From: Candidatus Woesebacteria bacterium
GTDB lineage: Bacteria > Patescibacteriota > Microgenomatia > UBA8517
Assembly: GCA_003484955.1 (NCBI GenBank)
Contig: DMZH01000003.1
Span: 112,387 to 176,386, forward strand
Length of the DNA stretch: 64,000 nt
Direction: 5' to 3'
Shown: piece after piece, positions 4,748 to 63,954 of the stretch
How the letters are laid out: each line of letters opens with the position of its first letter
Numbering within the stretch: position 1 is the first letter of the stretch
Translations under genes and position numbers: made by a program
The notes under the pieces: model-generated
Database searches by the model: none
The model's input: the letters and a program-made list of their open reading frames with translations, nothing else
Told to the model about the DNA's origin: nothing

Positions 4748-4755
4748 AACAAGTA

Positions 4756-39248: not shown

Positions 39249-39321
39249 TTTACAAGTTTCTACAACACGCAAGGAAACCCAAAGTTGTAAATTTGGGCAT
39301 GTTTTTACAAGTTGTTACAAC
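39249..39321. promoter_or_regulatory. Repeated TTTACAAGT(N4)TACAAC motifs (two copies plus an internal inverted copy) at the 3' boundary of the minus-strand fibre operon.
   Basis: TTTACAAGTTTCTACAAC at 39249-39266. TTTTTACAAGTTGTTACAAC at 39302-39321. Inverted AGTTGTAAATTT at 39283-39294. The same motifs occur at 54746-54832. Confidence 0.4.
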
Positions 39322-40136
39322 GTACTCCCCGATTCTGTCGCTATTGGTATTTCCACTACCCCGCTTGGCGTGGCACTTAGTTCGTCAAGAATTGTATTTA
39401 CAGATTGAGTATCTGCCGACTCTGTACTTTCCGAAAGTGGCGCCAGATTTAATAAAAACAAATCGTCAACCGATAGAGAAAACTTTTCCTCTGCAAGACT
39501 TTCTGCGGCTAAGTAAATATCTCCATTTTTTATTTTAGGATTCCTGGCCTTTTCCCCGGTTGTAACATCAACCGATTTATTGTCGTTAATGGAATAGACA
39601 ACCGCTCTCCAGGTGTCTGTTATGTCACGTCTTCCATAACTAATGTAGTCGTCGGAAAAATCAGGATTTAGAGAAGTATCCCCTGTTGTTAATTGTTTGG
39701 TCGATAACCCGTCAAAGAAAAATATTTGCCAAGTATTCCCATCCCACCCTTCCCAAACAACCCTTCCTTTATAATCAACCCTAGGATTAAGGTTGGTCCC
39801 CAAAAAAGTAAGCTGAGTTTTTGAATCCGAAATTGTATCATAAAGAAAAATCTGCCCTGCCTCGTTGTAATCGGAAACATATGCCACATATCTGCCATTC
39901 GTGAACGGGCTGCGGCTATTCCGACTTTCGTTCGTGATAAAGTGTTTGCTTCCCTGATAGGTATAAAAAACTTGTTGATACCCGCTAACCACTTCAGTGC
40001 CAACTTGCAAATCGTTTGCCTTTATATAGTCAGATAAACCTGCGTCTAGCTGTTGGGCAAGAATTGGTCTAACTCCAATAAAAAGCAATCCCGCAATTAA
40101 TAATGAAGCTGACCACGAAACAAATATTTTTCGCAT
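39315..40136 (-). CDS. Secreted PD40/TolB-like beta-propeller repeat protein.
   Basis: Signal peptide. Repeats such as GRYVAYVSDYNEAGQIFLYD and GRVVWEGWDGNTWQIFFFD. Confidence 0.45.
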   Translation of the reverse strand: MRKIFVSWSASLLIAGLLFIGVRPILAQQLDAGLSDYIKANDLQVGTEVVSGYQQVFYTYQGSKHFITNESRNSRSPFTNGRYVAYVSDYNEAGQIFLYDTISDSKTQLTFLGTNLNPRVDYKGRVVWEGWDGNTWQIFFFDGLSTKQLTTGDTSLNPDFSDDYISYGRRDITDTWRAVVYSINDNKSVDVTTGEKARNPKIKNGDIYLAAESLAEEKFSLSVDDLFLLNLAPLSESTESADTQSVNTILDELSATPSGVVEIPIATESGSTL

Positions 40137-40144
40137 ACAAAAAC

Positions 40145-42925: not shown

Positions 42926-42969
42926 TCTCCTATATTATTATAGCCCCTTGGTAACATCTTTCAAACAAA

Positions 42970-44766
42970 TCAATTTGTCCAATAAAAACCCTGTTTAATT
43001 CCCGATGAGAATGTACTGCCGTGACGAAGCAAGTCTCCTGTCCCCGGCTCAGTTGTCAGTGCTGGACAGTTATTCCATCCTGCAAGGCTAGTCGTTCCGG
43101 TACCATCAGCTGTTGTCTCCACTAATCTGAACAAATATCGAGTTGATGACACCGAACTTGTCCCAACAATATGGAAGTCAAATTCAATATCTTGCCCCGT
43201 TGCAGAAGTACCAGTTGGGGTATTGGCGGGCTTTACCTTTGAATATGTCTCAAGCATGTCGGTTCCTGTCAATTTTGCAACCGTTAAAGTCGTATCGTCA
43301 GCAACCGACGATGAAGCGTATTCCCAGGTGGCACTAGGAGCTACATCTGTCCACGAACCAGCAGAACAGTCAGAATCGGTACCAGCCCGAAACTGAAGTT
43401 TAAAGTATTTAGAACCTCCCGTAATAGTTGCAGTATTTACAGTTATATTTGTCCTTAATCTAAGTTCCTGGGCGGTGTCGGGCGGATCGTTTGCAATGGG
43501 TATGATCGTAATTCCTGTATTCTCAGCTAGATCTATTACTGAGACTGCGGACCAAGGATCGGTTACGTTTTCTGTGTCATTATCAACATACCACCTGTAA
43601 ACATTTTGAGTAAAAGTAGCAGATGCTGACTGAAGCGTTGTCGTTCCCGAAATCGCTACTGCGGTTCCCGGAGTTACCGTTCCGGACGACACAGTCATCT
43701 CTGTTGATGGGTTGGCAATTTGAATTTCTATCGTCTGTGTAGCTGAAGCTCCAGCACCTACATCCAAGACAACATATACACAAACCTCTGTTGTACCGAC
43801 TGACATTGAACCGGTTATCGTAGATTTTTCGGAAGCGTTGAAAGTGGCTCCGGTACCAAAAAGTGTCTCCGTACCGCCGTATGTTTCACTGGAACAGGTA
43901 GTGGCAGCTGTTTCATAATAAATATCAGCATTGGAAAGATTGCTGTTGGCGTTTACGGTTCCTGTATCGGTAATTATGACTTGAGTGACCGTTGCCGTGT
44001 TGATATCTGTCGCGAAGGTAAACGCGCCACCAACATAATTATTGGTAGAACCTATATTCATGGTAGAGGTTTGTGTACCTGTCGTACCAACTGTCATTAT
44101 TGGAAGAGTGTAAGTAATAGTAATTCTTACAGAATCCACATAGGCAGTAGTTGCCGCACCACCCCCTGAAACTTTAACGTTTTTGGCCGAAATCGCCGCA
44201 CCAAAAGTTGAGCCATTTATATCCGCTGCCGTCCAAGTATCTCCCCAGAGATTGGCAGCTCCGCCGTATGACACAAAAGTGTCCGTTGTTGTCCAATTAC
44301 TAATATTTGAAAGATCTGTGGCGCCAATAGCGTCAGTTTTAACTATCCTCACTGCATTATCCTGAGTTTCTCCAGTCCCGCCGTCAAGGCTGTCGCTTTT
44401 TTCCCATTCAACCGTAATACCGTCTATTCTGGCGTTTGAGGGAACAGAAAAGTTAAAACCGGTTGCTTTTATGTAATTGCTTACTCCTGTATTTTTTGTA
44501 AGAACTACGGATGCCTTGCTGTCATTGGTGGTAGTAGCATTCCCAGGAGTAGTCCAAGCAAGTGTGCCGATTCCTGCGTCGTTAACAGCCGTCGAAGCAT
44601 AACTTGGTCCGGCAGTAGCTGCCATTGCTTCCTGAATTTTTGGGGGGAAAATTCCGAACCCCGGAATTGAAATTGCAGGATAGCCGGTTAGAAGCCAGGA
44701 GAGAACCAAAAAAGTTACAAAAAAACTCTTGGTTATTCGAATAGTTTTTTTGTTCAATCTAATCAT
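42970..44766 (-). CDS. Secreted Thr-rich protein (598 aa), function unknown.
   Basis: Signal peptide with AMAA cleavage-like site. T/S/G-rich beta-type sequence. Sits 8 bp downstream of the giant gene. Confidence 0.45.
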   Translation of the reverse strand: MIRLNKKTIRITKSFFVTFLVLSWLLTGYPAISIPGFGIFPPKIQEAMAATAGPSYASTAVNDAGIGTLAWTTPGNATTTNDSKASVVLTKNTGVSNYIKATGFNFSVPSNARIDGITVEWEKSDSLDGGTGETQDNAVRIVKTDAIGATDLSNISNWTTTDTFVSYGGAANLWGDTWTAADINGSTFGAAISAKNVKVSGGGAATTAYVDSVRITITYTLPIMTVGTTGTQTSTMNIGSTNNYVGGAFTFATDINTATVTQVIITDTGTVNANSNLSNADIYYETAATTCSSETYGGTETLFGTGATFNASEKSTITGSMSVGTTEVCVYVVLDVGAGASATQTIEIQIANPSTEMTVSSGTVTPGTAVAISGTTTLQSASATFTQNVYRWYVDNDTENVTDPWSAVSVIDLAENTGITIIPIANDPPDTAQELRLRTNITVNTATITGGSKYFKLQFRAGTDSDCSAGSWTDVAPSATWEYASSSVADDTTLTVAKLTGTDMLETYSKVKPANTPTGTSATGQDIEFDFHIVGTSSVSSTRYLFRLVETTADGTGTTSLAGWNNCPALTTEPGTGDLLRHGSTFSSGIKQGFYWTN

Positions 44767-44774
44767 TTCAAAGC

Positions 44775-47700
44775 TTAGTTGCTTGTAAAGTAGTTAAGGC
44801 TAATTTCACCAACATCTGTTATTCCACCCGTTGCTGCAGCCGTTACATCAATCTGAATTGTCATATAGCTTCCTGCTGTCCAAGTACCTCCCGAGATATT
44901 TATTCCGTTCTGAATCCAGGTATTGGCGGCGCCCGCAATTTCCGTTCCCCCGGCATTATTTAATGCATTAGCGGTATCATAGACTTTTATATTGACATGT
45001 CCGTTTGTTGCATCGGATCTTTTCGCATAAGCTTGGATGGAATTACTCGTATCCCAAGCCGAGAAATTATCCGGAACTCTCCATTTTAGATATACTGTAT
45101 ATGTTTGAGGGGTTCCCTGGGTAGTTGTCCAGTTATAATAGTTATGAGTATCTCCCGAAGTGTTACAAACCGTTGTATTCGTTGCGGTTAAGCCCCCAAC
45201 ACCGGCTGATGCTGCACAGAAATCTGATGTCATTGTTCCCGTCCCGCTCCCTGTGAGAACAGCACCGGGAAATTCCGGAACAAGTTCTTCTCTTCTGTCA
45301 GGACGTGCAGTTCCGGCAAGGGCTGGGGCAGCTGCAGGATTAAATGTATATGTATTTCCCCCGCTTCCGATTGTTACTGTACTGGACGCTCCCAGTGTGG
45401 TTACACCCGAAACCGCCCCTGAGTTAATTATCATACCGTTGATTGTATTAGTTGCCGTTGCGCCACTAATTGCACCTGAAAGACCAAGTGTCGAGACACC
45501 AGAAACGGCTCCTGAGTTAATAATGATCCCGTTAATTGTGTTTGTGGCTGTTGCAGCAGTGATAGCTCCGGAAAGACCTAAAGTTGTAGCCCCACTAAGT
45601 GCGCCTGAATTAATAATAAGTCCGTTAATAGTATTGGTTGCAGTTGCGCCGGTTATGGCTCCGGACAGACCAAGTGTTGAAACGTTTGAAACCGCACCCG
45701 AATTTATTATTACTCCATTAATGGTATTTGTAGCGGTCGCGCCGGTTATCGCTCCCGTTGCAGAAAGAGTTGTGAATGCTCCACTTCCTGGAGTTGTGCT
45801 TCCGATTGAGCCGGGAGCAGCAAAAGTTGCTCCGTTAAGGGATGAGGCGTTAAGATTGGCAACATTGGTTGTTGAGGCAACCACAAATGGAGCTGTTCCT
45901 GTAACAAGAGTTGAAGTAATTTGACCAGAAGCATTGATTGTCGTAATTCCGGATAGAGCTCCTGAGTTAATAATCAAGCCGTTAATTGTGTTTGTTGCCG
46001 TTGCTCCGGTAATTGCTCCCGAAAGACCGAGCGTGGATACATTCGAAACTGCACCGGAGTTAATGATGATTCCATTAATAGTGTTAGTGGCTGTTGCGCC
46101 CGTGATAGCGCCTGTAGCCGAGAGTGTTGTGAATGCTCCGGTTGAAGGGGTTGAAGCTCCAAGTGTTGTCCCATTAATTGATCCGCCGCTAATTAAAACT
46201 CCTCCTGCAGCAAGAGTACCGTTAACTGTCGTCGTAACAGTTGCTCTACCAATTGCAAGGTTTGAGGCATTGGTTCCACCAATGGTAATTGCCCCATTTG
46301 AAGTTACTCCTGCCCCCGTATCAATTGTCACAGAACCCGAGGTACCGGACACGGAAGTTCCACCTGTTTGAATTGTAATTGCACCTGAATTTCCGGAAGC
46401 CCCGGTTGCTGTATTGATAGTAACTCCATTCAAATTACCGGTAGTACTAAAGGTGGCTCCGGCATCAAATGTAACTGCTGAATCGGACTTTCTAATTATT
46501 TTTGAGTTCGCATAATCAATTGTGATTCCTGCTACTCCTGCAGTTTCATCCGTGATAATAAAATCAGCCGCTACATAATTAAGAGCAACGGCAGAAGTTA
46601 CAATATTGGTACCACCTTCTTTAATTGTTGAAACTCCTCCCCCGGCACCAGTGTTGTCTGCTGAACATCCCCAGGTGTCTGCAGTTTCATTCCACTTTAA
46701 GAGTTGTCCATCGGAACATCCCTGAAGAAGGGTTACTCCGGAGACAAGAAGTTCCAGTCCGGAACCTGATGATGTGGTTACTGAAAGAGCATCTGTTGCG
46801 GCCGGAAGATCAATCCCCAGGCTTCCACCTTCCGTGCCGGTCATTGTTAGCCCCCCGTTTGAGGTGGCCGAGGCAATGTAATTACCCGTTGTGTCGGTTC
46901 CCAAAGCTACAGAATTTGCAGCAATTGTCAATCCTCCCGAAAAAGAACCAGATATATCTCCTCCCGTTGGACTTTCTCCAACGTTTACATATATTGAATC
47001 AAGGGTTGTGGAATAGTTGGAAGTTGTCAGATCGTCCGAGGCAGTTTGATCCCAAGCTGAGAGTTGAGCTGCTGCATTTGATGATGTGACGACAGTCCCG
47101 GAAGAGCCGCTAAATGTAAACGTTGAGTCGGAGGTGGAAAGATCCCCAATATCTAATATTCCATAGAGTGTTGGTGTTACGCCCGATTCCAACATTTTAA
47201 GTTCACTTGAGGTATTGACCAAAACAATGTCAAAGGCTCCCGTTTGATTCCAATCGGCGGTAAGGGCCGCCAGAGAAATTGTCGGAGCGGATCCTTCTCC
47301 CGTCGCGGCTGCGCTGATACCGTTTCCCGATGTCAAAGTCGCAACATAATCGCCTGTTGTATCAGTTGTTAAGGCTACAGAATTTCCAGCAATAGTTGTT
47401 GCAAAACTACCTGTTCCCGAACCCGTTACATCCCCTGTTAAAGTAATTGTCTGGTCTCCCGTGTTGGAACCTGAAACATTGGAGGCAGAGAGCGCTCCGA
47501 CAATGGTTAAGGCTCCTGCACTTGTGATTTTGTTGCTTGCACTGAAGAATTGTATATCTCCTTTGGTAATATTACTCGTTGAAACAAGTGTTAAAGTCTC
47601 ACTCGCAGCTGTCCCGCCTGTGATGGTAAAACTACCGGTTCCTGATAAAGCAGTGCCTGAATAAGTTCCACCTGAAAGGGATCCTCCTGATAGAGTTCCG

Positions 47701-50700
47701 CCTGAAAGAGTGGCACCGTTAATTGTTGATGAGGCTGATATTGTTGTAATACCACTTAATGCGCCTGAATTAATAATTAAACCGTTTATTGTATTTGTGG
47801 AGGTGGGTGCAGATATTGCACTCGTGGCGGATAAACCGGTAAATGCGCCACTTGCAGGTGTTACCGCTCCAATTGTTGCACCGTTAATTGTTCCCCCTGT
47901 AATTTGTCCTCCGGTGATAAAAACGTTACCCGCAGATTGAGTAGCAATTGTTCCTAAGCCTGATATATCGGTTGTTGAAATACTCAATAATGTTTTAACT
48001 TGAGCGGCAGTTAAAGCAATCGGAGTTGCGGAACTTCCAGTGTTGTTTCCGATAATTGAGTTGGCTGCGAGATTAGCCATCTTTCCCAAAGTTACTGCTC
48101 CATTGGCAATTGTTACAGCAAAAGATCCCGTACCAGAACCTGTTACATCACTTGTTAGACTAATTGTCTGATCTCCTGTGTTTGTTCCGGATGAACTGCC
48201 TGAAAAGTTTGATCCCAACAAAGTTCCAGTAACTGACAAATTCCCTGTTGTTCCCGCATCAGTTAAGGTAAGAAGAGTGTTGGGTGTAGCATTACTGTCT
48301 TTGATAGTTAACACCCCCGCGGCATCGCCTGCCCCCAAAGTCAATACCGGAACCGAGCTCGAGAAAAGTAATGGTGAGGCAGATGATAATGTAATTCCAT
48401 TTGATGTTGTTGCTCCCCTGCCCGTAACTGACAATAGAGTATCGGCTTCGGTAGTAGATAAATTAAGAGTTCCACCAAGAGAAAGGGAGCCTCCGCCTGA
48501 GAGAATTCCACTGGTGTTAATAGTAACCGAGGAGTTGGTCAAGCTGGAGTTGCCGATATTGGATAGTGTGTTGGTAGAACCCGATATAGAAAGACCCGTT
48601 GCGGTTCCTCCAATCGTCACACCACTAACTTGCCCCCCTGTTATGAATACATTACTTGCACTCTGAGTGGCTATTGTACCTAAGCCCGACACATCAGACG
48701 TTGAAATTCCAAGTAAAGTTTTGACCTGAGAAGCAGTTAAAGCAATCGGAGTTGTGGAACTTCCCGTATTATTTCCAATTATCGAATTGGCAGCCAAGTT
48801 TGCCATTTTACCTAAAGTAACTGCTCCTGAAGCAATAGTTGTAGCAAAAGATCCGGTACCGGTTCCGGTCACATCACTGGTTAATGTGATTGTCTGGTCT
48901 CCTGTGTTGGTACCGCTTGATGTTCCTGAGAAATTGGATGCACCAATTGTCCCTTCAACAGAAAAGTTGGCAAGTCCTGTACTACTGTTGGTAATGGTTA
49001 AAGTTCTATCAAGAGCATTATTAAAGTCAAATGTCAGGGAGGCTCCGCTTAATGGAATATTTGTGTCTGAGATAGTCAAGTCACTGAAAGTCCAAGCCCC
49101 TGATATTGATTGTATTTGGTCAGTCCTTGTAATTTTTGAATTGGTGTAATCAATTGCTATGTTTCCCTCTCCTGCCGGGGAATTTGTCGCATCAAAATCG
49201 GCTGCAAGAAAATCAACTGTTGTAGCGCTTGTAACCACATCAGCATCACCAATTTGGATGGTTGATATTCCTCCTCCTGCACCTGTGTCATCAGTACCGC
49301 AAGTTAAGACTCCTGCCACTGTCTCCAGAGCAGAACAGTTTGCAAATGAGCTATCGTACAATGTTATGCCAGCTCCACTACTACCCGCTTTGATTGTCAA
49401 AGTATCTGTATTAGTATCACCCAGGGTGGTATTTCCATTAGAATCAAGGATTGTGAAGTTACCACCTGCTCGGGTTGTACCACCAATGGTGATATTGTTA
49501 ATAGTTCCACCCACAAGTTGACCTCCTGTTATATAAACGTTGCTGGCAGACTGTGTTGCGATGGTGCCAAGGCCTGAGATATCGTTTGTTGAGATACCTA
49601 GTAAGGTCTTAACTTGGGAAGCTGTAAGTGCGATTGGTGTGGCAGCAGAACCAGTATTATTACCGATTATTGAATTTGCTGCCAGGTTGGTCATCTTACT
49701 TAGAGATACTGCTCCGTTTCCGATCGCGGTTAAGCCGGTATTATTTATTGATATATCTCCCGTAACGGCAACACCTGTTGCAATGTTTGATCCATTACCC
49801 ACAAAGATGTTGGCGCTTGTTAAGGTTTTTGAAAGCTTTCCCGAAAGAGAGGCTGTAAGATCTGTTTGATCATCAAGTAAGCCCGTGATTGCTCCCCAGG
49901 CAACTCCGGATGAGTTGGTAATCCAGGAAAGAGCAGAGCCGTTTGTACCCAGAACCTTGCCACTGTTGCCTGTTTGATCGGGCAGAACTTTGGTTGGGGA
50001 AAGGGATGTAATCCAGCCGGGATCAGCGTATGAACCGGTTGAAAGAATTATATTTCCCGTTGTCACTCCGTTGACGGCTACCGTTGATAATGATCCTCCG
50101 GAAATGGAACCACCCGAAATTGTGGCACCATTAATCGATACTAAACCACTAAGCTGTCCACCGGTAATAAACACATTGCTGGCAGATTGAGTAGCAATTG
50201 TTCCCAATCCCGAAACATCTGAGGTTGAAATCCCCAATAAAGTTTTAACTTGGGATCCGGTCAATGCGATTGGGGTGGCGGAGGATCCAGTGTTGTTTCC
50301 GATAATTGAGTTGGCTGCGAGATTGGCCATTTTTCCTAAAGTTACAGCTCCACCGGCAATTGTGGTAGCAAATGATCCTGTGCCAGATCCCGTAACATCA
50401 CTGGTTAAGGTAATCGTTTGGTCTCCTGTGTTGGTACCGCTTGATGTTCCTGAGAAATTGGATGCGGATATTGTCCCGTCGACTATGACATTGGCAACCT
50501 GGGAAGTCGTTGAATTAAGAATATTAAGTGTCCTCGTGGTGGCCCCGGTTAAATCAAATATCGTATTCCCGCCCGAGAAAGTAATTGTGGGGGTCGTTCC
50601 TGAAAAAGTAATCGGGGTGGCGGATGATAAAGTCAATGCTGTTGCAGTTGAAGCTCCGCGACCGGTGACCGATGAAAATGTATCCGCCTCAGTTGCCAAA

Positions 50701-52913
50701 AGATTTAATGTTCCCCCAAGAGATAAACTTCCGCCGCCCGAGAGAATTCCACTGCTATTAATGGTAACTGAAGAATTACTAAGACTGGAATTGCCAATGT
50801 TGGATAAAGTGTTTGATGCCCCCGAAATTGTTAAACCGGAGGCTGTACCGGCAATTGTTACCCCACTAATTTGCCCTCCTATTACATATATATTGCTGGC
50901 AGATTGAGTAGCTATTGTTCCCAATCCAGAAATGTCCGATGTTGAAATGCCCAGCAAGGTTTTTACCTGAGCTCCTGTTAGGGCAATTGGAGTCGCGGAA
51001 CTTCCTGTATTATTTCCGATTATTGAGTTAGCCACAAGGTTGGCCATCTTGGAAAGGGATATTGCACCATTTCCGATAGTTGTACTAATTGTGGTTGCCC
51101 CGCTTCCTGAAACGTCCCCACTTAAAGTAATTGTTTGGTTACCGGTTAAATAATTTGAATTATTGGTCCATTGAGAAATATTTCCTGACGTAAAGTTGGC
51201 AACTGAAAGACCGGATATGGTGTTACTTGCTCCCGAGATAGTTTTATTGGTTAAAGTGTCGCTTGTTGCCCGACCGATAAGAGTGTCTGTAGATATCGGC
51301 AAGGTTAGAGTTCCGGTATTACTAATTGTTGAAATAATAGGAGATGTACTAAACGTCCAAGTCCCGGTAACCGACTGAGTTTGATCACTTCTGACTATTT
51401 TTGAGTTGGTGTAATCAATCGATAAATTCCCCTCGCCTGCGGGAGAATTCGTCAGATCAAAATCAGCTCCCAAAAAATCAATTGTAGTTGCAGATGAAAC
51501 TACTGTTACATCATCTGCTTGAAGTGTTGAAATTCCCCCTCCCGTTCCTCCTGCATCAGTTGCACAGTCCCAGGAGGAGGTACTATCCGTCCACTTTAAA
51601 AGTTCGCCGTCGCCGCAAGTCCGGATTAAAGAAAGTCCTGACGAAGTGGCCACAAGCCCTCCCCCCGATTGAATATTCAAAGCCAAACTAGTAGCACCCG
51701 AGGTTCCTCCTCCGGTCAAACCATTTCCCGCGGTTACACCGGTAATTGTCCCTGATCCTCCGGATGTTCCACAGGACCCCCAAGTAAAGCCCCCGGTACT
51801 ATTGTTGTAAGTTAAACATTGTCCGCCGGTTGGATCATTCGAAGATGCCAAATCGGATTCATTTATGGAGCTATCGGAAACGCCTACCGCTGTAATTCCA
51901 GAAAGATCAACTGAAAGCGTTGCAATGTTATCAAGTGTGGCAACTGTTAATTTAGAACTATCGCTTTTTATGTCGGTTATTCCCTGAATTATCTCGCCTA
52001 CCGTCTGTTGATAAACACTATTGCCGCTTGAGATTGATTGGGCAACACTCTGAATATAATTCACAACTCCTTGAATTGGAGATGTCAAAATGGCACCGCC
52101 TGACGTTCCACCAGCAAAAGCCCATGTTCCCGTACTCTCGTCAAAGATCGGCTTATTGAATCCCGTTGGCTGATAATCAGAAATTCCCAAAACATCAATA
52201 TTCGCAGAAAGCTCATAAATTGAATTGAAAAGGGAGATTGCGTTCTTGGCAACCGTACTTTCTACTTCGGTTGTTTTCTGAGCGCCGGTTTTTATGACGA
52301 CATTTAAGATTTTACCGTTCTTATCAACCGTTCCTGCAACTACAAATCCGGTATCATATGTCTGTCCCACAAAGTCACCAATCAGCCTTCCCTCTTCAAC
52401 CTTTCCTTGAAGAATCTTAATTGCATAGGAGGTGTTGCTATCTAAAACCAAATTGGCAATCATTCTATCCATAATTTGGCCCACAGCTCTTGTGCCGTCT
52501 TTCAAATAAAAAGTGGTTATGATCCCATCACTAAAACTATCAAGCGCTTGGTCACCTGATAAGAATAAAATTCTTGCTCTATTAACAAATTGGTTGCCGT
52601 CCCCTTTTACCTCTCCGCTGATAACTTTATATACAGAAAATGAACCGTTTGATAAAAGTGCTGTCCCGACAACCTTATCATCAAAAAATGAATTTTCTAC
52701 TCTTTCTTCGTCAAGATAGCCTGATCTGGTCTCGACATCTTTGACCATTTGAGAGATGTTCGATGTCAAAAATCCCTTTTGTCCAGCAAGGTTTAGAAAA
52801 TATCCCCCTCCAACAGCCACCGCTGAAGTAATCGCAAGAACCAATACAACGACTAAGGGTATTACCCCGTCGTTATACTTTTTCTGAGACTGATATTTTG
52901 TTATCCGTAACAA
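44775..52913 (-). CDS. Giant (2712 aa) N-terminally membrane-anchored repetitive fibre protein.
   Basis: TM at aa 17-40. Five or more ~150-aa repeats (..AISLSKMANLAANSIIGNNTGSSATPIALT..QVKTLLGISTSD.SGLGTIATQSASN..). Four Cys-pair 'C.DG.LLKW....W.C..D.GG.GGG.ST' motifs. Many 'GAITGATATNTINGIIINSGA' repeats. Unique beta-rich C-terminal domain. Confidence 0.8.
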   Translation of the reverse strand: MLRITKYQSQKKYNDGVIPLVVVLVLAITSAVAVGGGYFLNLAGQKGFLTSNISQMVKDVETRSGYLDEERVENSFFDDKVVGTALLSNGSFSVYKVISGEVKGDGNQFVNRARILFLSGDQALDSFSDGIITTFYLKDGTRAVGQIMDRMIANLVLDSNTSYAIKILQGKVEEGRLIGDFVGQTYDTGFVVAGTVDKNGKILNVVIKTGAQKTTEVESTVAKNAISLFNSIYELSANIDVLGISDYQPTGFNKPIFDESTGTWAFAGGTSGGAILTSPIQGVVNYIQSVAQSISSGNSVYQQTVGEIIQGITDIKSDSSKLTVATLDNIATLSVDLSGITAVGVSDSSINESDLASSNDPTGGQCLTYNNSTGGFTWGSCGTSGGSGTITGVTAGNGLTGGGTSGATSLALNIQSGGGLVATSSGLSLIRTCGDGELLKWTDSTSSWDCATDAGGTGGGISTLQADDVTVVSSATTIDFLGADFDLTNSPAGEGNLSIDYTNSKIVRSDQTQSVTGTWTFSTSPIISTISNTGTLTLPISTDTLIGRATSDTLTNKTISGASNTISGLSVANFTSGNISQWTNNSNYLTGNQTITLSGDVSGSGATTISTTIGNGAISLSKMANLVANSIIGNNTGSSATPIALTGAQVKTLLGISTSDISGLGTIATQSASNIYVIGGQISGVTIAGTASGLTISGASNTLSNIGNSSLSNSSVTINSSGILSGGGSLSLGGTLNLLATEADTFSSVTGRGASTATALTLSSATPITFSGTTPTITFSGGNTIFDLTGATTRTLNILNSTTSQVANVIVDGTISASNFSGTSSGTNTGDQTITLTSDVTGSGTGSFATTIAGGAVTLGKMANLAANSIIGNNTGSSATPIALTGSQVKTLLGISTSDVSGLGTIATQSASNVFITGGQLSGLVSINGATISGGSISGGSLSTVAVNGVTTGNIILSTGSYADPGWITSLSPTKVLPDQTGNSGKVLGTNGSALSWITNSSGVAWGAITGLLDDQTDLTASLSGKLSKTLTSANIFVGNGSNIATGVAVTGDISINNTGLTAIGNGAVSLSKMTNLAANSIIGNNTGSAATPIALTASQVKTLLGISTNDISGLGTIATQSASNVYITGGQLVGGTINNITIGGTTRAGGNFTILDSNGNTTLGDTNTDTLTIKAGSSGAGITLYDSSFANCSALETVAGVLTCGTDDTGAGGGISTIQIGDADVVTSATTVDFLAADFDATNSPAGEGNIAIDYTNSKITRTDQIQSISGAWTFSDLTISDTNIPLSGASLTFDFNNALDRTLTITNSSTGLANFSVEGTIGASNFSGTSSGTNTGDQTITLTSDVTGTGTGSFATTIASGAVTLGKMANLAANSIIGNNTGSSTTPIALTASQVKTLLGISTSDVSGLGTIATQSASNVFITGGQVSGVTIGGTATGLSISGSTNTLSNIGNSSLTNSSVTINTSGILSGGGSLSLGGTLNLSTTEADTLLSVTGRGATTSNGITLSSASPLLFSSSVPVLTLGAGDAAGVLTIKDSNATPNTLLTLTDAGTTGNLSVTGTLLGSNFSGSSSGTNTGDQTISLTSDVTGSGTGSFAVTIANGAVTLGKMANLAANSIIGNNTGSSATPIALTAAQVKTLLSISTTDISGLGTIATQSAGNVFITGGQITGGTINGATIGAVTPASGAFTGLSATSAISAPTSTNTINGLIINSGALSGITTISASSTINGATLSGGTLSGGSLSGGTYSGTALSGTGSFTITGGTAASETLTLVSTSNITKGDIQFFSASNKITSAGALTIVGALSASNVSGSNTGDQTITLTGDVTGSGTGSFATTIAGNSVALTTDTTGDYVATLTSGNGISAAATGEGSAPTISLAALTADWNQTGAFDIVLVNTSSELKMLESGVTPTLYGILDIGDLSTSDSTFTFSGSSGTVVTSSNAAAQLSAWDQTASDDLTTSNYSTTLDSIYVNVGESPTGGDISGSFSGGLTIAANSVALGTDTTGNYIASATSNGGLTMTGTEGGSLGIDLPAATDALSVTTSSGSGLELLVSGVTLLQGCSDGQLLKWNETADTWGCSADNTGAGGGVSTIKEGGTNIVTSAVALNYVAADFIITDETAGVAGITIDYANSKIIRKSDSAVTFDAGATFSTTGNLNGVTINTATGASGNSGAITIQTGGTSVSGTSGSVTIDTGAGVTSNGAITIGGTNASNLAIGRATVTTTVNGTLAAGGVLISGGSINGTTLGASTPSTGAFTTLSATGAITGATATNTINGIIINSGAVSNVSTLGLSGAITGATATNTINGLIINSGALSGITTINASGQITSTLVTGTAPFVVASTTNVANLNASSLNGATFAAPGSIGSTTPGSGAFTTLSATGAITGATATNTINGVIINSGAVSNVSTLGLSGAITGATATNTINGLIINSGALSGATTLGLSGAITAATATNTINGIIINSGAVSGVSTLGLSGAISGATATNTINGMIINSGAVSGVTTLGASSTVTIGSGGNTYTFNPAAAPALAGTARPDRREELVPEFPGAVLTGSGTGTMTSDFCAASAGVGGLTATNTTVCNTSGDTHNYYNWTTTQGTPQTYTVYLKWRVPDNFSAWDTSNSIQAYAKRSDATNGHVNIKVYDTANALNNAGGTEIAGAANTWIQNGINISGGTWTAGSYMTIQIDVTAAATGGITDVGEISLNYFTSN

Positions 52914-52914
52914 C

Positions 52915-54738
52915 TTATTTATTTTTCCTTAAGAATGTAACGAGTGTTAAACTTCCGATAGTGGTTATAATAAAAAATAGAAATGTTGCAAAACCCATCA
53001 AACTATATATCCTTATAGCGGCTGACTGGGATTGTGCAGCCACAACTCCCCAATTGTAATCGTCAACATTTTTATAAGCCTCAAGCTTCAAGACTCCTTC
53101 ATAATCATAAGTAACCAATGATCCGCTCGTTCCCGAAACGGCTTTCATTACCAAACTATCAGAGGGTGCCTTTATTATTGTATCTTGAGGGTCGGGATTT
53201 AGAATATAATTTCCACTGGAATCTGCTACCGTAAATGAACTTGTTCCAGTGTGGTCAATTTGTCCTAATTGTCTTTGAAGTTCAAAGATATCAACCGAGC
53301 CTAAAATCACGCCCAAAAATTTGCCGTCTGTACCAATTATAGGAAGTGAGATTAAGATCGAGGGTTCAATTCCCGGAGAGTTGGGTTTGATAAAACCCGT
53401 CACAAAAACTCTGCCTGTCTTCGCTGGTTCACTAAAATAATCCCTATTGGAAATGTCTACATTCTGACTTTGAAAATAAAACGGATAAGTATCAACAATC
53501 TTACCGTTTCCGTCTGTAACAACCATACGGACAAAAGAATTATTTGAAGACAGATAGATTTGTTTAAGTTCACTATCTAAATCAGCAGTAGACCCTTCGA
53601 TCAACAATTTGGACAAATTGTTGTCGCTTAGAAAAGCTGAAAGGGTTAGTGTGTTTCTGTCCATGAAATTTTTAGTCACCTCGGATGCTAACTCAACCCT
53701 TCCGTTCATCTCGTCTAAGATGATAGTTTGAAAAGAACGATATGCCATCCGAAGCATAAATGATCCGATAAAGAAAACACCCAAGATCCACAAGAAACAA
53801 ACCAGAGCCTCTTTTTTAGTCTTTGTTTTAAAAGTATCAAATTCACTGGCGAAGGGATAGACAAACGAAAATGTTCCTAGGGTTATTCCAAAAATAGATC
53901 TACCCCAGTACCCACCTGTAAAAGACATTGCGGAGTAAATAAGCGCTATTGTTCCGGCTATAAAGGAGGTTATTATCATGAAATATTTACTTCCTTTTAA
54001 AGCTTTAAGGCTCAAGAATAAAAGTAAACAAAAAAATGCAAACCAAACCGCAGCAAACACGTCCCGGGAGACTATTCCGGTACGAAAAAGAATGGAGAAT
54101 GTAGAAGAACCTGGCCAAATAAGAAATCCTAGACCAATCAAAACAAACAAAAGGTTTATAAAAATTAGATATTGCAAGCGATAATTTATCCTTTTTATAG
54201 CCGAGAGTATAAGAACAACCGACAGCGATAAATATCCTACCGAAGAAACAGATTTTTGAGACAAAAATATTCCCGCTAGAACCAATGACAAAACGCCAAT
54301 GTAAAGATATAAGGCTGTATGTTTGTGGCCTTTATTAATCATGAAAGTATCAAAACCAAGTAAAAGTGCCCCCCCAATAAAAAGAAGAATATTTACAACG
54401 TTCAAATATGGCGCAATTTCCATTAATGGCTGTTGGGCATTTGCATAAACTGGATTTGTGAATTGGGAAAAACCGAGACCAATTGCAAGAAATCCTATAA
54501 ACCAATCAAAAATACTGAGTGATTTTTTAGGATCAGGCGCCGAAGATGGTGTCTCCTGAAGACTTTTACCTCTTTCCTGAAGAAGTCTGTTCACTTCGCT
54601 CGCCGGTATTCTAAACCTCCCCTCGGCACCCAACCTGACAGCTTTAATGCTGCCGTTTTCCAAATATTTATAGACCGTGTTTGTAGAAAAACCAAGAAGA
54701 TTTGCTACCTCTTTTACTGTGTAGGTCGATTTGGGCAT
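52915..54738 (-). CDS. Membrane-bound one-component regulator: N-terminal HTH (excisionase/HTH_17-type), about 8 TM helices, an extracytoplasmic Cache-like sensor domain and a C-terminal TM.
   Basis: YTVKEVANLLGFSTNTVYKYLENGSIKAVRLG...RFRIPASEV is the HTH. A long polytopic region follows. The Cache-like stretch is (..VTDGNGKIVDTYPFY..DISNRDYF..GVILGSVDIFELQ..). Its stop overlaps the giant gene start by 1 bp. Confidence 0.65.
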   Translation of the reverse strand: MPKSTYTVKEVANLLGFSTNTVYKYLENGSIKAVRLGAEGRFRIPASEVNRLLQERGKSLQETPSSAPDPKKSLSIFDWFIGFLAIGLGFSQFTNPVYANAQQPLMEIAPYLNVVNILLFIGGALLLGFDTFMINKGHKHTALYLYIGVLSLVLAGIFLSQKSVSSVGYLSLSVVLILSAIKRINYRLQYLIFINLLFVLIGLGFLIWPGSSTFSILFRTGIVSRDVFAAVWFAFFCLLLFLSLKALKGSKYFMIITSFIAGTIALIYSAMSFTGGYWGRSIFGITLGTFSFVYPFASEFDTFKTKTKKEALVCFLWILGVFFIGSFMLRMAYRSFQTIILDEMNGRVELASEVTKNFMDRNTLTLSAFLSDNNLSKLLIEGSTADLDSELKQIYLSSNNSFVRMVVTDGNGKIVDTYPFYFQSQNVDISNRDYFSEPAKTGRVFVTGFIKPNSPGIEPSILISLPIIGTDGKFLGVILGSVDIFELQRQLGQIDHTGTSSFTVADSSGNYILNPDPQDTIIKAPSDSLVMKAVSGTSGSLVTYDYEGVLKLEAYKNVDDYNWGVVAAQSQSAAIRIYSLMGFATFLFFIITTIGSLTLVTFLRKNK

Positions 54739-63171: not shown

Positions 63172-63954
63172 TTAGGAAATGAGTCTGGCATATACAAATA
63201 TTCTCTCCGGCCCACTCAGATTGATACAGGTATAAAGGATGAGATCGGCCGAGTAGTCAGTAATTTCCTCACCATTTTCTGTTTTATAAACGCCGTATTT
63301 GTACTCCCTTTGTTGCCAATCGATCGTAATTATATCCCCCACTTTGACTTTAGGAAGATTGTAAAAAGAGTTCTTACGCCTGAATGTGTTGGTCCAGGCT
63401 AAGTATCCATATCTGTGAGCAGCCAAAATAATAGGTGCCCCCGTTTCGTCCGGTTCACCAAAATTGGAAACCCTCCAAACTCCCTTTTTAAGAGCCGCCT
63501 CATAATTGTCATAGGTTGCTTCCTCGATATCCGTATCCACCCCAATTGAAGGAATGAATATACGGTTGGTTTTGGGAAGAGCTGGGTCAAACGCCGGCAA
63601 AGGTCGCACTGTAGCACCCTGACCCTCATTGGTAAGTTCCTGGACTTCGTTTCCGGAAAGTTTATAGTTGCTGGCTCCCCAACTCCAAACAGATTTGGCT
63701 AAGGAGGCAGCACCGGGAGTGAAATAAATTGCCAAAATAGCGATTCCGATTACGGCCAAAATTTTTGCCAATTTTAAAGAAAAACGGCCGGGACGTGATA
63801 CAGTCCGACTTTCTTCAGCCACAAAAGAAGAAACCTTTTCCAAGGCTAGACCATCAAGGAAATTGATTTTCACGCTTTCTTTCAATCCACCGTCTTCGTT
63901 TGGATTGTGGTCCAGACCTGCGTTATAGACCTGATAAATGATTACTTCTGTCAT
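63172..63954 (-). CDS. Sortase-family transpeptidase.
   Basis: N-terminal TM. GAPIILAAHR (sortase His motif), LILYTC (TLxTC catalytic Cys) and conserved Arg in VYARL. Confidence 0.75.
   Translation of the reverse strand: MTEVIIYQVYNAGLDHNPNEDGGLKESVKINFLDGLALEKVSSFVAEESRTVSRPGRFSLKLAKILAVIGIAILAIYFTPGAASLAKSVWSWGASNYKLSGNEVQELTNEGQGATVRPLPAFDPALPKTNRIFIPSIGVDTDIEEATYDNYEAALKKGVWRVSNFGEPDETGAPIILAAHRYGYLAWTNTFRRKNSFYNLPKVKVGDIITIDWQQREYKYGVYKTENGEEITDYSADLILYTCINLSGPERIFVYARLIS

What the first reader, a model, noticed from the sequence alone, without database searches (positions are those of the whole stretch)
44775..52913. Giant fibre 2 (2712 aa) with near-identical multi-hundred-bp internal repeats and recurring Cys-pair 'LKW' motifs
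Five or more copies of a ~150-aa module (GNGAISLSKMANLAANSIIGNNTGSSATPIALTxxQVKTLLGISTSDxSGLGTIATQSASNV...) are encoded by DNA repeats that are near-identical at nucleotide level. For example, about 48.75-48.96 kb versus 50.28-50.48 kb, and 45.40-45.76 kb versus 45.96-46.14 kb. Four copies of C..DG.LLKW(N/T)....W.C..D.GGTGGG(I/V)ST resemble the '(G)QxLKWNGxxW' repeat seen in tail-fibre-like surface proteins. Long perfect repeats inside a surface fibre gene are substrates for recombinational length or antigenic variation. The many antisense ORFs in the track (45160-51691) are artefacts of this repetitive, codon-biased sequence.
Basis: seen in the sequence. Interest (0 to 1): 0.7.

Follow-up and report, generated by a model that had tools for sequence, protein, structure and literature searches.

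The report
Giant modular surface fibre of Woesebacteria

Summary
The ORF (44775-52913, minus strand, 2,712 aa) is real, and the repeated protein modules are real. There are five copies of a 73-aa 'KMANLAANSIIGNNTG' core at 79-95% amino-acid identity.

The claim of near-identical DNA repeats is wrong. Copies are 67-80% identical at nucleotide level and the longest exact repeat is 47 nt. Third codon positions are randomised (33-58% identity, dN/dS below 0.1). Copies cluster by position across strains, not within a genome, so these are ancient duplicates under strong purifying selection.

Only two of the 'four' LKW motifs are canonical.

The gene lies in the chromosome of Candidatus Woesebacteria GW2011_GWD2_40_19 (Rifle aquifer), not in a phage. 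At least 14 contigs give the same 2,712-aa length.

Related strains show real mosaicism:
- a 621-nt in-register module gain or loss;
- patchwork recombination between alleles;
- replacement of the C-terminal domain.

[quoted passage not shown] It is a new member of a known kind, of modest interest.

The parts
44775..52913 (-). Complete CDS of the giant protein (2,712 aa, TTG start; identical to P0001; 99.7% to GenBank KKR54109.1 'hemagluttinin domain protein')
52794..52913 (-). Short basic cytoplasmic tail (aa 1-16) plus the single hydrophobic membrane anchor (aa ~17-40, conserved 'G(V/I)IPLVVVL'); implies N-in, C-out topology
   Evidence: Kyte-Doolittle 19-residue window above 1.6 only at aa 13-43
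51879..52793 (-). Non-repetitive membrane-proximal N-terminal domain (aa ~41-345). Conserved in orthologues; no internal repeats; no Pfam, PHROG or PDB match
51771..51818 (-). Degenerate Cys-bracketed hairpin (CLTYNNSTGGFTWGSC, aa 366-381)
51354..51617 (-). Canonical Cys-pair LKW hairpin 1 (CGDGELLKWTDSTSSWDC) plus GGTGGGIST and a small beta unit ending IDYTNSKI (aa 433-520). The hairpin is the only moderately confident part of the rod model (pLDDT ~79)
50862..51080 (-). KMANL module core copy 1 (aa 612-684)
50145..50363 (-). KMANL module core copy 2 (aa 851-923)
49509..49727 (-). KMANL module core copy 3 (aa 1063-1135)
49104..49337 (-). Cys hairpin without LKW (CSALETVAGVLTC) plus GAGGGIST and an IDYTNSKI unit (aa 1193-1270)
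48621..48839 (-). KMANL module core copy 4 (aa 1359-1431)
47895..48113 (-). KMANL module core copy 5 (aa 1601-1673). It is a chimera of copies 5 and 6 of the 2,828-aa allele in L008; the crossover lies at about aa 1611-1630 (window ~48024-48083)
46464..46718 (-). Canonical Cys-pair LKW hairpin 2 (CSDGQLLKWNETADTWGC) plus GAGGGVST and an IDYANSKI unit (aa 2066-2150)
45937..46650 (-). 714-nt patch about 99% identical between this allele and the otherwise 71-90% identical P0003-type allele (L012). It is the junction of the chimeric 2,969-aa allele P0030 (L007)
45354..46130 (-). Array of 31-aa (93-nt) 'ATNTINGxIINSGAxSG' repeats, interrupted by a unique ~55-aa stretch. Copies are 64-80% identical in DNA. 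One further copy lies at 47743-47819
44778..45395 (-). C-terminal tip domain (aa 2507-2712). It models as an all-beta jelly roll of carbohydrate-binding-module type. Two allelic types exist among close relatives
52915..54738 (-). Upstream gene encoding HTH_17 DNA-binding domain + multi-pass membrane region + dCache_1 sensor domain. Its stop codon lies 1 nt before the giant's start. The pairing is syntenic in all related loci
39315..44766 (-). Three same-strand downstream genes for secreted or anchored proteins: 598 aa of unknown function; 926 aa with DUF7948 + SBBP beta-propeller + FIMAH; 273 aa beta-propeller. This cassette is replaced in related strains

Best explanation
The gene encodes a giant cell-surface fibre of a Candidate Phyla Radiation (CPR) bacterium, Candidatus Woesebacteria.

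Proposed architecture:
- A short basic N-terminal tail and one transmembrane helix hold it in the cytoplasmic membrane.
- A roughly 300-aa unique domain sits next to the membrane.
- A rod of about 2,150 aa, rich in Thr, Gly, Ser and Asn, follows. It is made of several kinds of ancient, diverged repeat modules: five KMANL modules of the phage-tail-fibre DUF5907/PTR type, Cys-closed LKW beta-hairpins each followed by a small beta unit, and 31-aa repeats. The rod projects outwards.
- A roughly 200-aa carbohydrate-binding-module-like jelly roll forms the distal tip. It most likely binds a glycan on another cell or on a particle.

The repeats are kept by strong purifying selection on the protein. 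They are not recent duplications.

The gene diversifies between strains by homologous recombination in three ways: patchwork exchange between alleles, rare in-register gain or loss of whole modules, and swapping of the tip domain together with the downstream genes.

Shown: the anatomy, the repeat divergence, the population and strain comparisons, and the fold of the tip.
Inferred: surface exposure, fibre (possibly trimeric) assembly, glycan or host binding, and co-regulation with the upstream HTH_17-dCache protein.
For: CONTEXT
- The gene is chromosomal, with Rho, LeuRS, ArgRS, MreB and ComEC nearby and no phage genes.
- The organism is named by GenBank members of the 90% cluster. The window is 100% identical to a 750-kb contig.
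- The arrangement Rho / M23-LysM / HTH_17-dCache / giant is syntenic in four related genomes.

ANCHOR AND COMPOSITION
- There is a single N-terminal hydrophobic segment and no other. Composition is T 16%, G 14%, S 13%, with 8% charged residues.

REPEAT AGE AND SELECTION
- Between the five KMANL copies, amino-acid identity is 79-95% but third-position identity is 33-58%. pS is 0.52-0.84 and dN/dS is below 0.1.
- Codon sharing at identical residues equals the random expectation in 9 of 10 pairs.
- Copies pair with their positional counterparts in other strains (0.94-0.98 nt identity), not with each other (at most 0.80).

TAIL-FIBRE KINSHIP OF THE MODULE
- It is 65% identical over about 52 aa to Rhodobacter phage proteins that carry the same repeat and a weak PF12789 (PTR) hit. 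A Dinoroseobacter phage match is annotated 'tail repeat-like protein'.
- A profile search finds 3,125 cluster representatives (990 at E<=1e-10), with a median length of 772 aa among the top 146 other hits.
- Of 10 sampled, 7 hit Pfam DUF5907 at E<=0.001 (4 of these reach the 27-bit gathering score). In two of them (P0059, P0098) the best DUF5907 stretch overlaps the best KMANL stretch. One also has Peptidase_S74, and several hit PHROG 'tail fiber protein' families.

TIP DOMAIN
- The AlphaFold2 model has pLDDT 80.4 and pTM 0.75 and is all-beta.
- Foldseek top hits are a Klebsiella phage K2-2 tailspike, CBM61 and the phage Kp7 tail fibre. Against BFVD the top hits are phage tail fibres.

DIVERSIFICATION
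- A 207-aa in-register indel has its crossover in the KMANL core.
- pS between the window and L008 ranges from 0.02 to 0.52 per 100 codons, with pN/pS of about 0.12.
- Patches at 99-100% identity lie within alleles that are otherwise 71-90% identical.
- The tip types are 41-48% identical to each other, while the first 2,300 aa are about 100% identical in P0030.

LITERATURE ANALOGY
Giant membrane proteins of the CPR bacterium Vampirococcus have been proposed to form its fibrous surface and to mediate host attachment (PMC8080830).
Against: - There is no experimental or expression evidence.
- The rod could not be modelled. The monomer AlphaFold2 model of aa 425-700 has pLDDT 58 and pTM 0.23, so 'fibre' and 'trimer' rest on composition and on the nature of relatives.
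- The window protein itself does not reach significance for DUF5907, PTR or any other Pfam or PHROG family. It also lacks the Peptidase_S74 chaperone typical of many trimeric tail fibres.
- The CBM-like fold is very common. The structural matches have about 10% sequence identity and modest TM-scores (0.3-0.45), so ligand binding is a guess.
- Woesebacteria have no demonstrated host, so 'host attachment' is by analogy only.
- The chimeric allele P0030 may be a chimeric assembly across the shared 714-nt patch.
Confidence: 0.6

Rival explanations
1. Near-identical intragenic DNA repeats act as a contingency locus. They recombine frequently and generate repeat-number (length) and antigenic variants within the population.
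For: - One in-register 621-nt module indel between strains has its crossover inside the repeat core.
- One partial allele carries a 10-aa deletion inside a module (P0026).
- One assembly has a 74-nt deletion next to a repeat (L003).
- Orthologues have 4-6 KMANL modules and lengths of 2,204-2,969 aa.
Against: - The repeats are 67-80% identical and the longest exact match is 47 nt.
- Synonymous sites are saturated and there is no sign of gene conversion.
- The 2,712-aa length is invariant in five sequence variants on at least 14 contigs from independent assemblies of several samples.
- The extra module in L008 is itself an old, diverged copy (about 76% to its nearest paralogue), so the event is rare rather than ongoing.
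Confidence: 0.06
2. It is a structural envelope component: a fibrillar coat, an S-layer-associated spacer or a heavily glycosylated sheath. It has no specific ligand, and the repeats serve only to set length and stiffness.
For: - The composition is extremely rich in Thr, Ser and Gly, there is one membrane anchor, and repeat sequence is very strongly conserved.
- A glycosyltransferase, a Wzy_C/TPR protein, a sortase and a PEGA protein lie nearby.
- CPR cells are reported to have fibrous surfaces (PMC8080830).
Against: - The distal end is a discrete, well-folded CBM-like domain. It is swapped between strains while the rod stays nearly identical. That pattern is typical of receptor-binding tips rather than of bulk structural polymers.
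- The downstream secreted beta-propeller genes vary together with it in L008.
Confidence: 0.2
3. It is a true phage, prophage or tailocin tail fibre, or the locus is a mobile element.
For: - The KMANL module is shared with phage tail-fibre-type proteins.
- The tip resembles phage tailspike and tail-fibre C-terminal domains.
- The other giant in the window carries a Peptidase_S74 domain.
Against: - The protein has an N-terminal membrane anchor.
- No capsid, terminase, portal, tail tube or baseplate gene lies anywhere in the 64 kb.
- The locus is flanked by housekeeping genes and is syntenic in four related genomes.
- GC content (45-46% in the gene against 37-46% elsewhere in the window) is not sharply foreign.
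- There is no PHROG hit.
Confidence: 0.03
4. It is a polymorphic-toxin or contact-dependent-inhibition-like system: a conserved long filament with a variable C-terminal effector, followed by variable immunity genes.
For: The bulk of the protein is conserved, while the C-terminal domain and the genes immediately downstream are replaced between strains.
Against: - The two C-terminal types are homologous to each other (41-48% identity, same fold). They model as a CBM-like jelly roll, not as a nuclease, deaminase or pore former.
- There is no pre-toxin motif and no toxin Pfam hit.
- The downstream genes encode large secreted beta-propeller proteins of 598-926 aa, not small cytoplasmic immunity proteins.
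- In L007 the tip changes while the downstream gene stays 94% identical.
Confidence: 0.03
5. It is an assembly artefact: collapsed or mis-joined repeats create a false ORF or a false repeat count.
For: - The source is a metagenome assembly.
- One public assembly (L003) has a 74-nt gap and frameshift. One contig (L007) may be a chimera of two alleles.
Against: - The longest exact repeat (47 nt) is shorter than the reads and shorter than the k-mers of the assemblies concerned (contig names k127, k141).
- The same 8,139-nt gene is recovered by different assemblers and in different samples: L001, L002, L004, L006 and the JGI and NCBI members.
- The frame stays open for 2,712 codons, and the gene shows purifying selection against an orthologue.
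Confidence: 0.02

Closest known systems
Phage tail-fibre repeat proteins carrying Pfam DUF5907 (PF19264) or 'Phage tail repeat like' PTR (PF12789), e.g. Rhodobacter phage RcPescado gp11 and Dinoroseobacter phage vB_DshS_R26L 'tail repeat-like protein'
   Same: They share the roughly 50-70-aa module 'x-(A/V)-(V/I)-T-x-x-K-(L/M)-A-N-(L/M)-x-x-x-(S/T)-(I/L)-x-G-N-x-T-G-x-x-x-x-P-x-x-L-T-x-x-Q-V-K-T-L-L', with up to 65% identity over 52 aa. The module comes in several copies per protein. Relatives hit DUF5907, PHROG tail-fibre families and sometimes Peptidase_S74.
   Different: - Those proteins are typically 400-1,000 aa and soluble virion parts. Only 15 of 146 have an N-terminal hydrophobic segment, and none has this C-terminal domain.
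- The window protein is 2,712 aa, membrane-anchored and chromosomal in a CPR bacterium.
- It does not itself reach the Pfam thresholds.
Giant membrane or surface proteins of CPR bacteria, e.g. the ten longest proteins (1,392-4,163 aa) of Vampirococcus lugosii, proposed to form the fibrous surface and mediate host attachment (PMC8080830)
   Same: It is a very large, membrane-anchored, largely unannotatable protein in a small-genome CPR bacterium, with an inferred role in cell-surface architecture or attachment. Distant homologues with the same LKW hairpin or the same C-terminal domain occur in other Patescibacteria: Andersenbacteria, a Gracilibacteria protein carrying the tip domain, and unclassified 'Patescibacteria group' genomes.
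   Different: The Vampirococcus proteins are described with WD40, PKD, integrin and fibronectin-type domains. This family is built from tail-fibre-type repeats plus a CBM-like tip. No host is known for Woesebacteria.
Trimeric autotransporter adhesins and filamentous haemagglutinins (the basis of the GenBank name 'hemagluttinin domain protein' for KKR54109.1)
   Same: It is a long, repetitive, low-complexity beta-rich surface fibre with an adhesive head. Repeat number varies between strains.
   Different: - It has no YadA-type C-terminal membrane anchor, no Hep_Hag, HIM or haemagglutinin repeats, and no two-partner-secretion (TPS) domain (no Pfam hit).
- Polarity is opposite: the anchor is N-terminal and the head is C-terminal.
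- By general knowledge, CPR cells are thought to have no outer membrane.
Carbohydrate-binding modules of the beta-sandwich (galactose-binding-like) superfamily, and the C-terminal domains of phage tailspikes and tail fibres (CBM61 2xom; CBM36 7ay3/1ux7; Klebsiella phage K2-2 tailspike 8iq5/8iq9/8iqe; Kp7 gp52 7xyc)
   Different: Sequence identity is only 6-15% and there is no sequence-family membership. Ligand-binding residues were not identified. The family has its own conserved motifs (R-P-T-R-K-x-T-L-x-P-E-Y, N-Y-Y-x-W-T, W-R-V-P-D-N-F).

Membership tests
Phage tail-fibre repeat families (Pfam DUF5907 PF19264 / PTR PF12789) | The protein scores above the Pfam gathering threshold for the repeat | tested here: not met
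   There is no Pfam family at E<=0.01 for the whole protein. There is none at E<=5 for an isolated 246-aa module.
Phage tail-fibre repeat families (Pfam DUF5907 PF19264 / PTR PF12789) | The repeat is homologous to repeats of proteins that are members | tested here: met
   - A profile of the five window copies finds 3,125 cluster representatives.
- Of 10 sampled, 7 hit DUF5907 at E<=0.001 (4 of these reach the 27-bit gathering score). The best DUF5907 stretch overlaps the best KMANL stretch in P0059 and P0098.
- Phage proteins with 65% identity to the core give PTR hits: above the gathering score in the Dinoroseobacter phage, below it in RcPescado.
Phage tail-fibre repeat families (Pfam DUF5907 PF19264 / PTR PF12789) | Part of a virion or a phage genome | tested here: not met
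   No phage structural genes lie in the 64 kb. The context is housekeeping genes and is syntenic across genomes. The protein has an N-terminal membrane anchor.
Trimeric fibres with a C-terminal intramolecular chaperone (Peptidase_S74) | Peptidase_S74 domain present | tested here: not met
   It is absent from this protein. It is present in the other giant of the window at aa 1791-1837 and in one KMANL-bearing relative, P0059.
Trimeric fibres with a C-terminal intramolecular chaperone (Peptidase_S74) | Homotrimeric assembly | not testable with these tools
   Only monomer prediction was available. The rod monomer model is poor (pLDDT 58), which neither supports nor excludes an obligate oligomer.
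Trimeric autotransporter adhesins / haemagglutinin-repeat proteins | YadA-like C-terminal anchor, Hep_Hag/HIM or haemagglutinin repeats, or a two-partner-secretion (TPS) domain | tested here: not met
   No such Pfam or NCBIfam hit was found. The C-terminus is a CBM-like jelly roll.
Sortase-anchored (LPXTG) surface proteins | C-terminal LPXTG motif followed by a hydrophobic segment and a basic tail | tested here: not met
   The protein ends '...GEISLNYFTSN' with no LPXTG and no C-terminal hydrophobic segment. A sortase gene does lie at 63172-63954.
Carbohydrate-binding-module-like beta-sandwich (tip domain) | Beta-jelly-roll fold superposable on CBMs | tested here: met
Carbohydrate-binding-module-like beta-sandwich (tip domain) | Binds carbohydrate | not testable with these tools
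   This needs glycan arrays or binding assays with the recombinant domain.
Contingency locus / repeat-mediated phase or length variation | Long, near-identical (over ~95%) direct repeats within the gene | tested here: not met
   The maximum is 80% over 155 nt. The longest exact repeat is 47 nt.
Contingency locus / repeat-mediated phase or length variation | Repeat-number polymorphism within a population | tested here: inconclusive
   The dominant allele keeps a constant length on at least 14 contigs. Variants exist (P0026 -10 aa; L003 -74 nt; P0030 2,969 aa), but these may be artefacts or different strains. No read-level data were available.
Diversity-generating-retroelement target | A nearby reverse transcriptase and a template repeat matching the variable region | tested here: not met
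   No part of the gene matches elsewhere in the window. None of the roughly 30 window ORFs scanned with Pfam is a reverse transcriptase; not every ORF was scanned.
Polymorphic toxin / CDI-like system | C-terminal toxin domain with a cognate small immunity gene downstream | tested here: not met
   The tip is a CBM-like fold and its two types are homologous. The downstream genes encode large secreted beta-propeller proteins.

The most novel reading that the evidence does not exclude
The locus is a domesticated, cell-anchored counterpart of a phage receptor-binding apparatus. An ultra-small CPR bacterium would use a membrane-tethered 'tail fibre' with exchangeable CBM-like tips, plus co-varying secreted beta-propeller partners, to recognise the surface glycans of specific partner cells. 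Tip swapping would then set partner range, as it does for phages.

The fibre would also be wired to transcription. Here that would run through the translationally coupled membrane-bound HTH_17-dCache protein. In other Patescibacteria it would run through direct fusion of HTH_17/MerR domains to the cytoplasmic end of homologous giant fibres (P0008, P0009, P0011, P0017). That would amount to a contact-sensing adhesin.
Probability: 0.15. Interest if true: 0.65.

Novelty: new member of a known kind. Interest (0 to 1): 0.3.

Why it matters
How CPR/Patescibacteria recognise and hold on to partners is largely unknown. Their many giant, unannotated surface proteins are the obvious candidates.

This case provides:
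- a dissected example, with anchor, rod modules of phage-tail-fibre ancestry, and a CBM-like tip;
- direct evidence from natural alleles that the rod is conserved while the tip and downstream genes are exchanged.

That gives a concrete domain to express and test for ligand binding.

It is also a cautionary example. Highly similar protein repeats can hide fully randomised synonymous sites, so repeat instability cannot be inferred from a translated sequence.

Tried and rejected
1. Self-BLASTP of the whole protein returned only the self-hit. I replaced it with tiled searches.

2. Selection for codon scrambling, meaning fewer shared codons than chance as a way to suppress recombination, was tested and rejected. 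Shared codons equal or slightly exceed the random expectation: overall z = +2.8, driven by one pair.

3. The PDB sequence search gave only chance hits, to antibody light chains at E 0.3-0.8. NCBIfam gave only a sub-threshold TUL4 hit.

4. The rod segment aa 425-700 modelled poorly (pLDDT 58), so it was not used for fold search.

5. The LKW hairpin plus mini-domain found nothing in phage genomes. The word-indexed protein search returned only a fragment of the same protein.

6. Homology between the two giants of the window was rejected (best E 0.04).

7. The promoter and terminator scan found numbers equal to shuffled expectation and was not used.

8. Three literature searches with broad terms returned nothing specific to this family. 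A search for CPR 'giant proteins' gave the Vampirococcus and Omnitrophota papers, used only as analogies.

9. The AFDB50 fold library was unavailable.


Full report

The ORF is real. Positions 44775..52913 on the minus strand read through 2,712 codons from a TTG. The other two sense frames hold 145 and 178 stops.

- The core 'K-M-A-N-L-A-A-N-S-I-I-G-N-N-T-G' occurs five times, at aa 622, 861, 1073, 1369 and 1611.
- A 73-aa alignment of the five copies has 91% mean column identity.
- Tiled BLASTP shows that some copies extend to 100-250 aa. For example, aa 801-900 matches 1309-1408 at 86%, and aa 651-750 matches 1398-1497 at 83%.
- A second repeat class has 31 aa (93 nt) per unit, 'ATNTINGxIINSGA'. 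It sits near the C-terminus, with one outlying copy.

The nucleotide claim fails.
- The best self-BLASTN alignments are 71-80% identical.
The example 45.40-45.76 versus 45.96-46.14 kb reaches at most 80% over 155 nt.
- The longest exact direct repeat in the gene is 47 nt.

The 'four LKW motifs' are really two canonical ones (aa 433-465 and 2066-2098), one that retains only the Cys pair and the GAGGGIST tail (aa 1193), and one bare Cys hairpin (aa 366).

**2. How old are the repeats?**

For the five KMANL cores:
- amino-acid identity is 79-95%;
- third-codon-position identity is only 33-58%;
- the proportion of synonymous differences is 0.52-0.84, which is at or near saturation;
- dN/dS is below 0.1 wherever it can be computed.

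At residues that are identical between copies, the same codon is used as often as random draws from the gene's own codon usage predict in 9 of 10 pairs. Only the pair 861/1611 keeps a signal.

Each copy is most similar to the copy at the same position in other strains. Examples are 0.94, 0.95 and 0.98 nt identity to L008. No two copies within one genome exceed 0.80 in the window or 0.87 in L008.

So the duplications predate the divergence of these strains, there is no gene conversion, and the protein sequence of the module is under very strong constraint. I also tested whether codons are actively scrambled to suppress recombination. They are not: codon sharing is at or slightly above expectation.

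**3. Where does it come from?**

- The window is 100% identical to a 750-kb contig from a Rifle aquifer sediment metagenome (L001).
- The 90% cluster of the protein includes GenBank KKR54109.1, 'hemagluttinin domain protein' of Candidatus Woesebacteria bacterium GW2011_GWD2_40_19. This organism belongs to the Microgenomates group of Patescibacteria.
- The surroundings are chromosomal: Rho, an M23/LysM peptidase, LeuRS, ArgRS, MreB, ComEC, mevalonate-pathway enzymes and a sortase. There are no phage structural genes.

The gene is the second of five closely spaced genes on the same strand.
- Upstream lies a protein with an N-terminal HTH_17 domain, about eight hydrophobic segments, a dCache_1 domain and a last hydrophobic segment. 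Its stop codon is 1 nt before the giant's TTG.
- Downstream lie genes for a 598-aa protein with an N-terminal hydrophobic segment, a 926-aa DUF7948/SBBP beta-propeller/FIMAH protein, and a 273-aa signal-peptide beta-propeller protein.

The order Rho / M23-LysM / HTH_17-dCache / giant is kept in four related genomes. The downstream genes differ between them.

**4. Anatomy of the protein**

- A basic 16-residue tail is followed by the only strongly hydrophobic segment of the protein (aa ~17-40). This segment is conserved in orthologues. It implies a type II (N-in) membrane anchor.
- Residues ~41-345 are unique and match nothing.
- From aa ~350 to ~2,500 the protein is a mosaic of repeat types. 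Composition is T 16%, G 14%, S 13%, A 10%, N 7%, with 8% charged residues.
- The monomer AlphaFold2 model of aa 425-700 is poor (pLDDT 58, pTM 0.23). Only the Cys-closed LKW beta-hairpin is moderately confident.
- The last 206 residues, modelled with an 18-sequence alignment, give a confident all-beta domain (pLDDT 80.4, pTM 0.75).

Structural matches of the tip domain:
- Foldseek against the PDB puts a Klebsiella phage K2-2 tailspike first, followed by CBM61 and the phage Kp7 tail fibre.
- Against predicted viral structures, the top matches are phage tail fibres and minor tail proteins, with modest TM-scores.

**5. What the modules are related to**

- The KMANL core is 65% identical over about 52 aa to a repeat in 340-aa proteins of Rhodobacter phages. 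These have a weak Pfam PTR hit. A Dinoroseobacter phage match is annotated 'tail repeat-like protein'.
- A profile of the five window copies, searched against 1.84 billion cluster representatives, finds 3,125 proteins (990 at E<=1e-10). They usually carry several copies.
- Among the best 146 outside this family, the median length is 772 aa. Only 15 have an N-terminal hydrophobic segment, two have a Cys-LKW hairpin, and none has the C-terminal domain.
- Of ten sampled, seven hit Pfam DUF5907 at E<=0.001 and four of these reach the gathering score. In two (P0059, P0098) the best DUF5907 stretch overlaps the best KMANL stretch. One also carries Peptidase_S74, one carries DUF2793/BppL_N, and several hit PHROG 'tail fiber protein' families.

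The window protein itself does not reach any Pfam or PHROG threshold. The module is therefore a diverged member of a phage-tail-fibre repeat family. The giant, anchored architecture with LKW hairpins and this tip is confined to a small group of Patescibacteria proteins. The LKW segment has no phage match.

**6. Does the gene vary?**

*Within the sampled population, hardly.* Five sequence variants at 99.6-99.7% identity, on at least 14 contigs from different samples and assemblers, all have 2,712 aa and no indels. There are three exceptions:
- a partial protein lacking 10 aa inside module 4 (P0026);
- an assembly lacking 74 nt at 47805-47880, which splits the gene (L003);
- a 2,969-aa protein (P0030, L007). 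It is 99.3% identical to the window gene up to window position 45937. From gene nt 6264 onwards it is 99.85% identical to the allele of another strain (P0003, L012).

The two parent alleles of P0030 share a 714-nt near-identical patch at the junction. P0030 may therefore be either a natural recombinant or a chimeric assembly.

*Between strains there is clear mosaicism.*
- The L008 allele is about 94% identical overall. It has one extra 207-aa unit, exactly one repeat period. The window's module 5 matches L008's copy 5 on its 5' side and copy 6 on its 3' side, with the switch near aa 1620 inside the conserved core. This is the signature of in-register unequal recombination. The extra unit is itself an old copy, only about 76% identical to its nearest paralogue.
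- Synonymous divergence between the window and L008 ranges from 0.02 to 0.52 per 100 codons, with pN/pS of about 0.12.
- The L012 allele is 71-90% identical to the window but has patches at 99-100%.
- The C-terminal domain exists in two types that are only 41-48% identical. Alleles whose first about 2,300 residues are nearly identical can carry different types. In L008 the two downstream genes are replaced as well.

**7. Interpretation**

The best-supported reading is a membrane-anchored giant surface fibre. Its rod is assembled from ancient modules of phage-tail-fibre type. Its distal CBM-like domain most likely binds a glycan on a partner cell or particle. Diversification comes from recombination between alleles and from rare module indels.

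Surface exposure, oligomeric state and ligand are inferences. The analogy is to the giant membrane proteins proposed to form the fibrous, host-contacting surface of the CPR bacterium Vampirococcus (PMC8080830).

Rival readings and my weights:
- A purely structural coat remains possible (about 0.2).
- A true phage fibre, a polymorphic toxin and an assembly artefact are each unlikely, for the reasons given under each rival.

**8. Novelty and score**

The protein has been in GenBank since 2015 under a misleading name. I take the deposition date from my own knowledge of the Brown et al. 2015 CPR data set. Giant CPR surface proteins, tail-fibre repeats and CBM-like tips are all known kinds.

What is new here:
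- the dissection of the protein;
- the demonstration that the repeats are ancient and synonymously saturated;
- the evidence from natural alleles for tip swapping and an in-register module indel.

I rate it a new member of a known kind, with interest 0.3.

The more novel possibility is a domesticated receptor-binding fibre coupled to a membrane-bound HTH regulator, with HTH-fibre fusions in other Patescibacteria. This is not excluded, but it rests on gene adjacency and fusion only.

Noticed in passing
window 52915-54738 (-); homologues P0008, P0009, P0011, P0017: The gene directly upstream encodes HTH_17 (excisionase/MerR-like) + about 8 transmembrane segments + dCache_1 + a last transmembrane segment. 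It is translationally coupled to the giant (the stop lies 1 nt before the start). In distant giant homologues from other Patescibacteria, one or two HTH_17/MerR domains are fused to the N-terminus, followed by a single transmembrane segment and the 1,800-4,400-aa fibre. This explains their database names 'MerR family transcriptional regulator' and 'excisionase'. A cytoplasmic DNA-binding domain tied to an extracellular fibre is unexplained.
   Followed up: partly
window 29274-36218 (+): A second giant ORF (2,314 aa) is not homologous to this one (best BLASTP E 0.04). It has a Peptidase_S74 (endosialidase chaperone) domain at aa 1791-1837, about 480 residues before its C-terminus, and weak XerD-like N-terminal hits at aa 10-65. 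A homologous giant lies at the same position in L008 and L001.
   Followed up: partly
window 39315-44766 (-); L008 18525-23724; L011 14631-17684: The three genes downstream of the giant form a variable cassette: 598 aa of unknown function; 926 aa with DUF7948 + SBBP beta-propeller + FIMAH; 273 aa beta-propeller. Related strains have 701+662+265 aa or 760+256 aa proteins there instead, between conserved flanks.
   Followed up: partly
L003 (GCA_003518415.1), corresponding to window 47805-47880: This public assembly lacks 74 nt next to a repeat border. The gene is split into 1,689-aa and 1,032-aa ORFs. It could be an assembly error or a real frameshifted allele; this cannot be decided without reads.
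   Followed up: partly
L007 (contig k141_320626), gene nt 6264-6977, corresponding to window 45937-46650: The 2,969-aa allele P0030 joins the window-type 5' 7 kb to the P0003-type 3' 2.6 kb. The join runs across a 714-nt patch that the two otherwise 71-90% identical alleles share at about 99%. It is either a natural recombinant or a chimeric metagenome contig.
   Followed up: partly
C-terminal domain family: window 44778-45395; P0037-P0051, P0012, P0015: The tip domain family has strongly conserved motifs of unknown meaning just before and inside the jelly roll: 'A-R-P-T-R-K-x-T-L-x-P-E-Y-x-G-A', 'G-T-M-T-S-D-F-C...C', 'H-N-Y-Y-x-W-T' and 'W-R-V-P-D-N-F'. It always ends the protein, with an aromatic or Asn last residue. 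One type has an extra Cys-Cys loop that the other lacks.
   Followed up: no
window 45160-50907 (+), seven ORFs of 120-254 aa: Six of the seven antisense ORFs lie in a single antisense frame, which has 62 stops against 185-193 in the other two. This is as expected from the Thr/Gly/Ser/Ala-rich sense codons. No independent evidence of coding was sought.
   Followed up: partly
window 3470-7213 (-), 17574-18629 (-), 63172-63954 (-), 11094-12296 (+): Other genes in the window include undecaprenyl-diphosphate synthase, diphosphomevalonate decarboxylase and GHMP kinases (mevalonate pathway), a ComEC-type competence protein, a sortase and a PEGA-domain protein. The giant itself has no LPXTG signal.
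   Followed up: no
window 42937-42964 (-): An 11-of-12 match to the sigma-70 consensus (TTGAAA, 16 nt spacer, TATAAT) lies in the 44-nt gap between the 598-aa and 926-aa genes. It is possibly an internal promoter, but the scan as a whole found no more sites than shuffled sequence.
   Followed up: no
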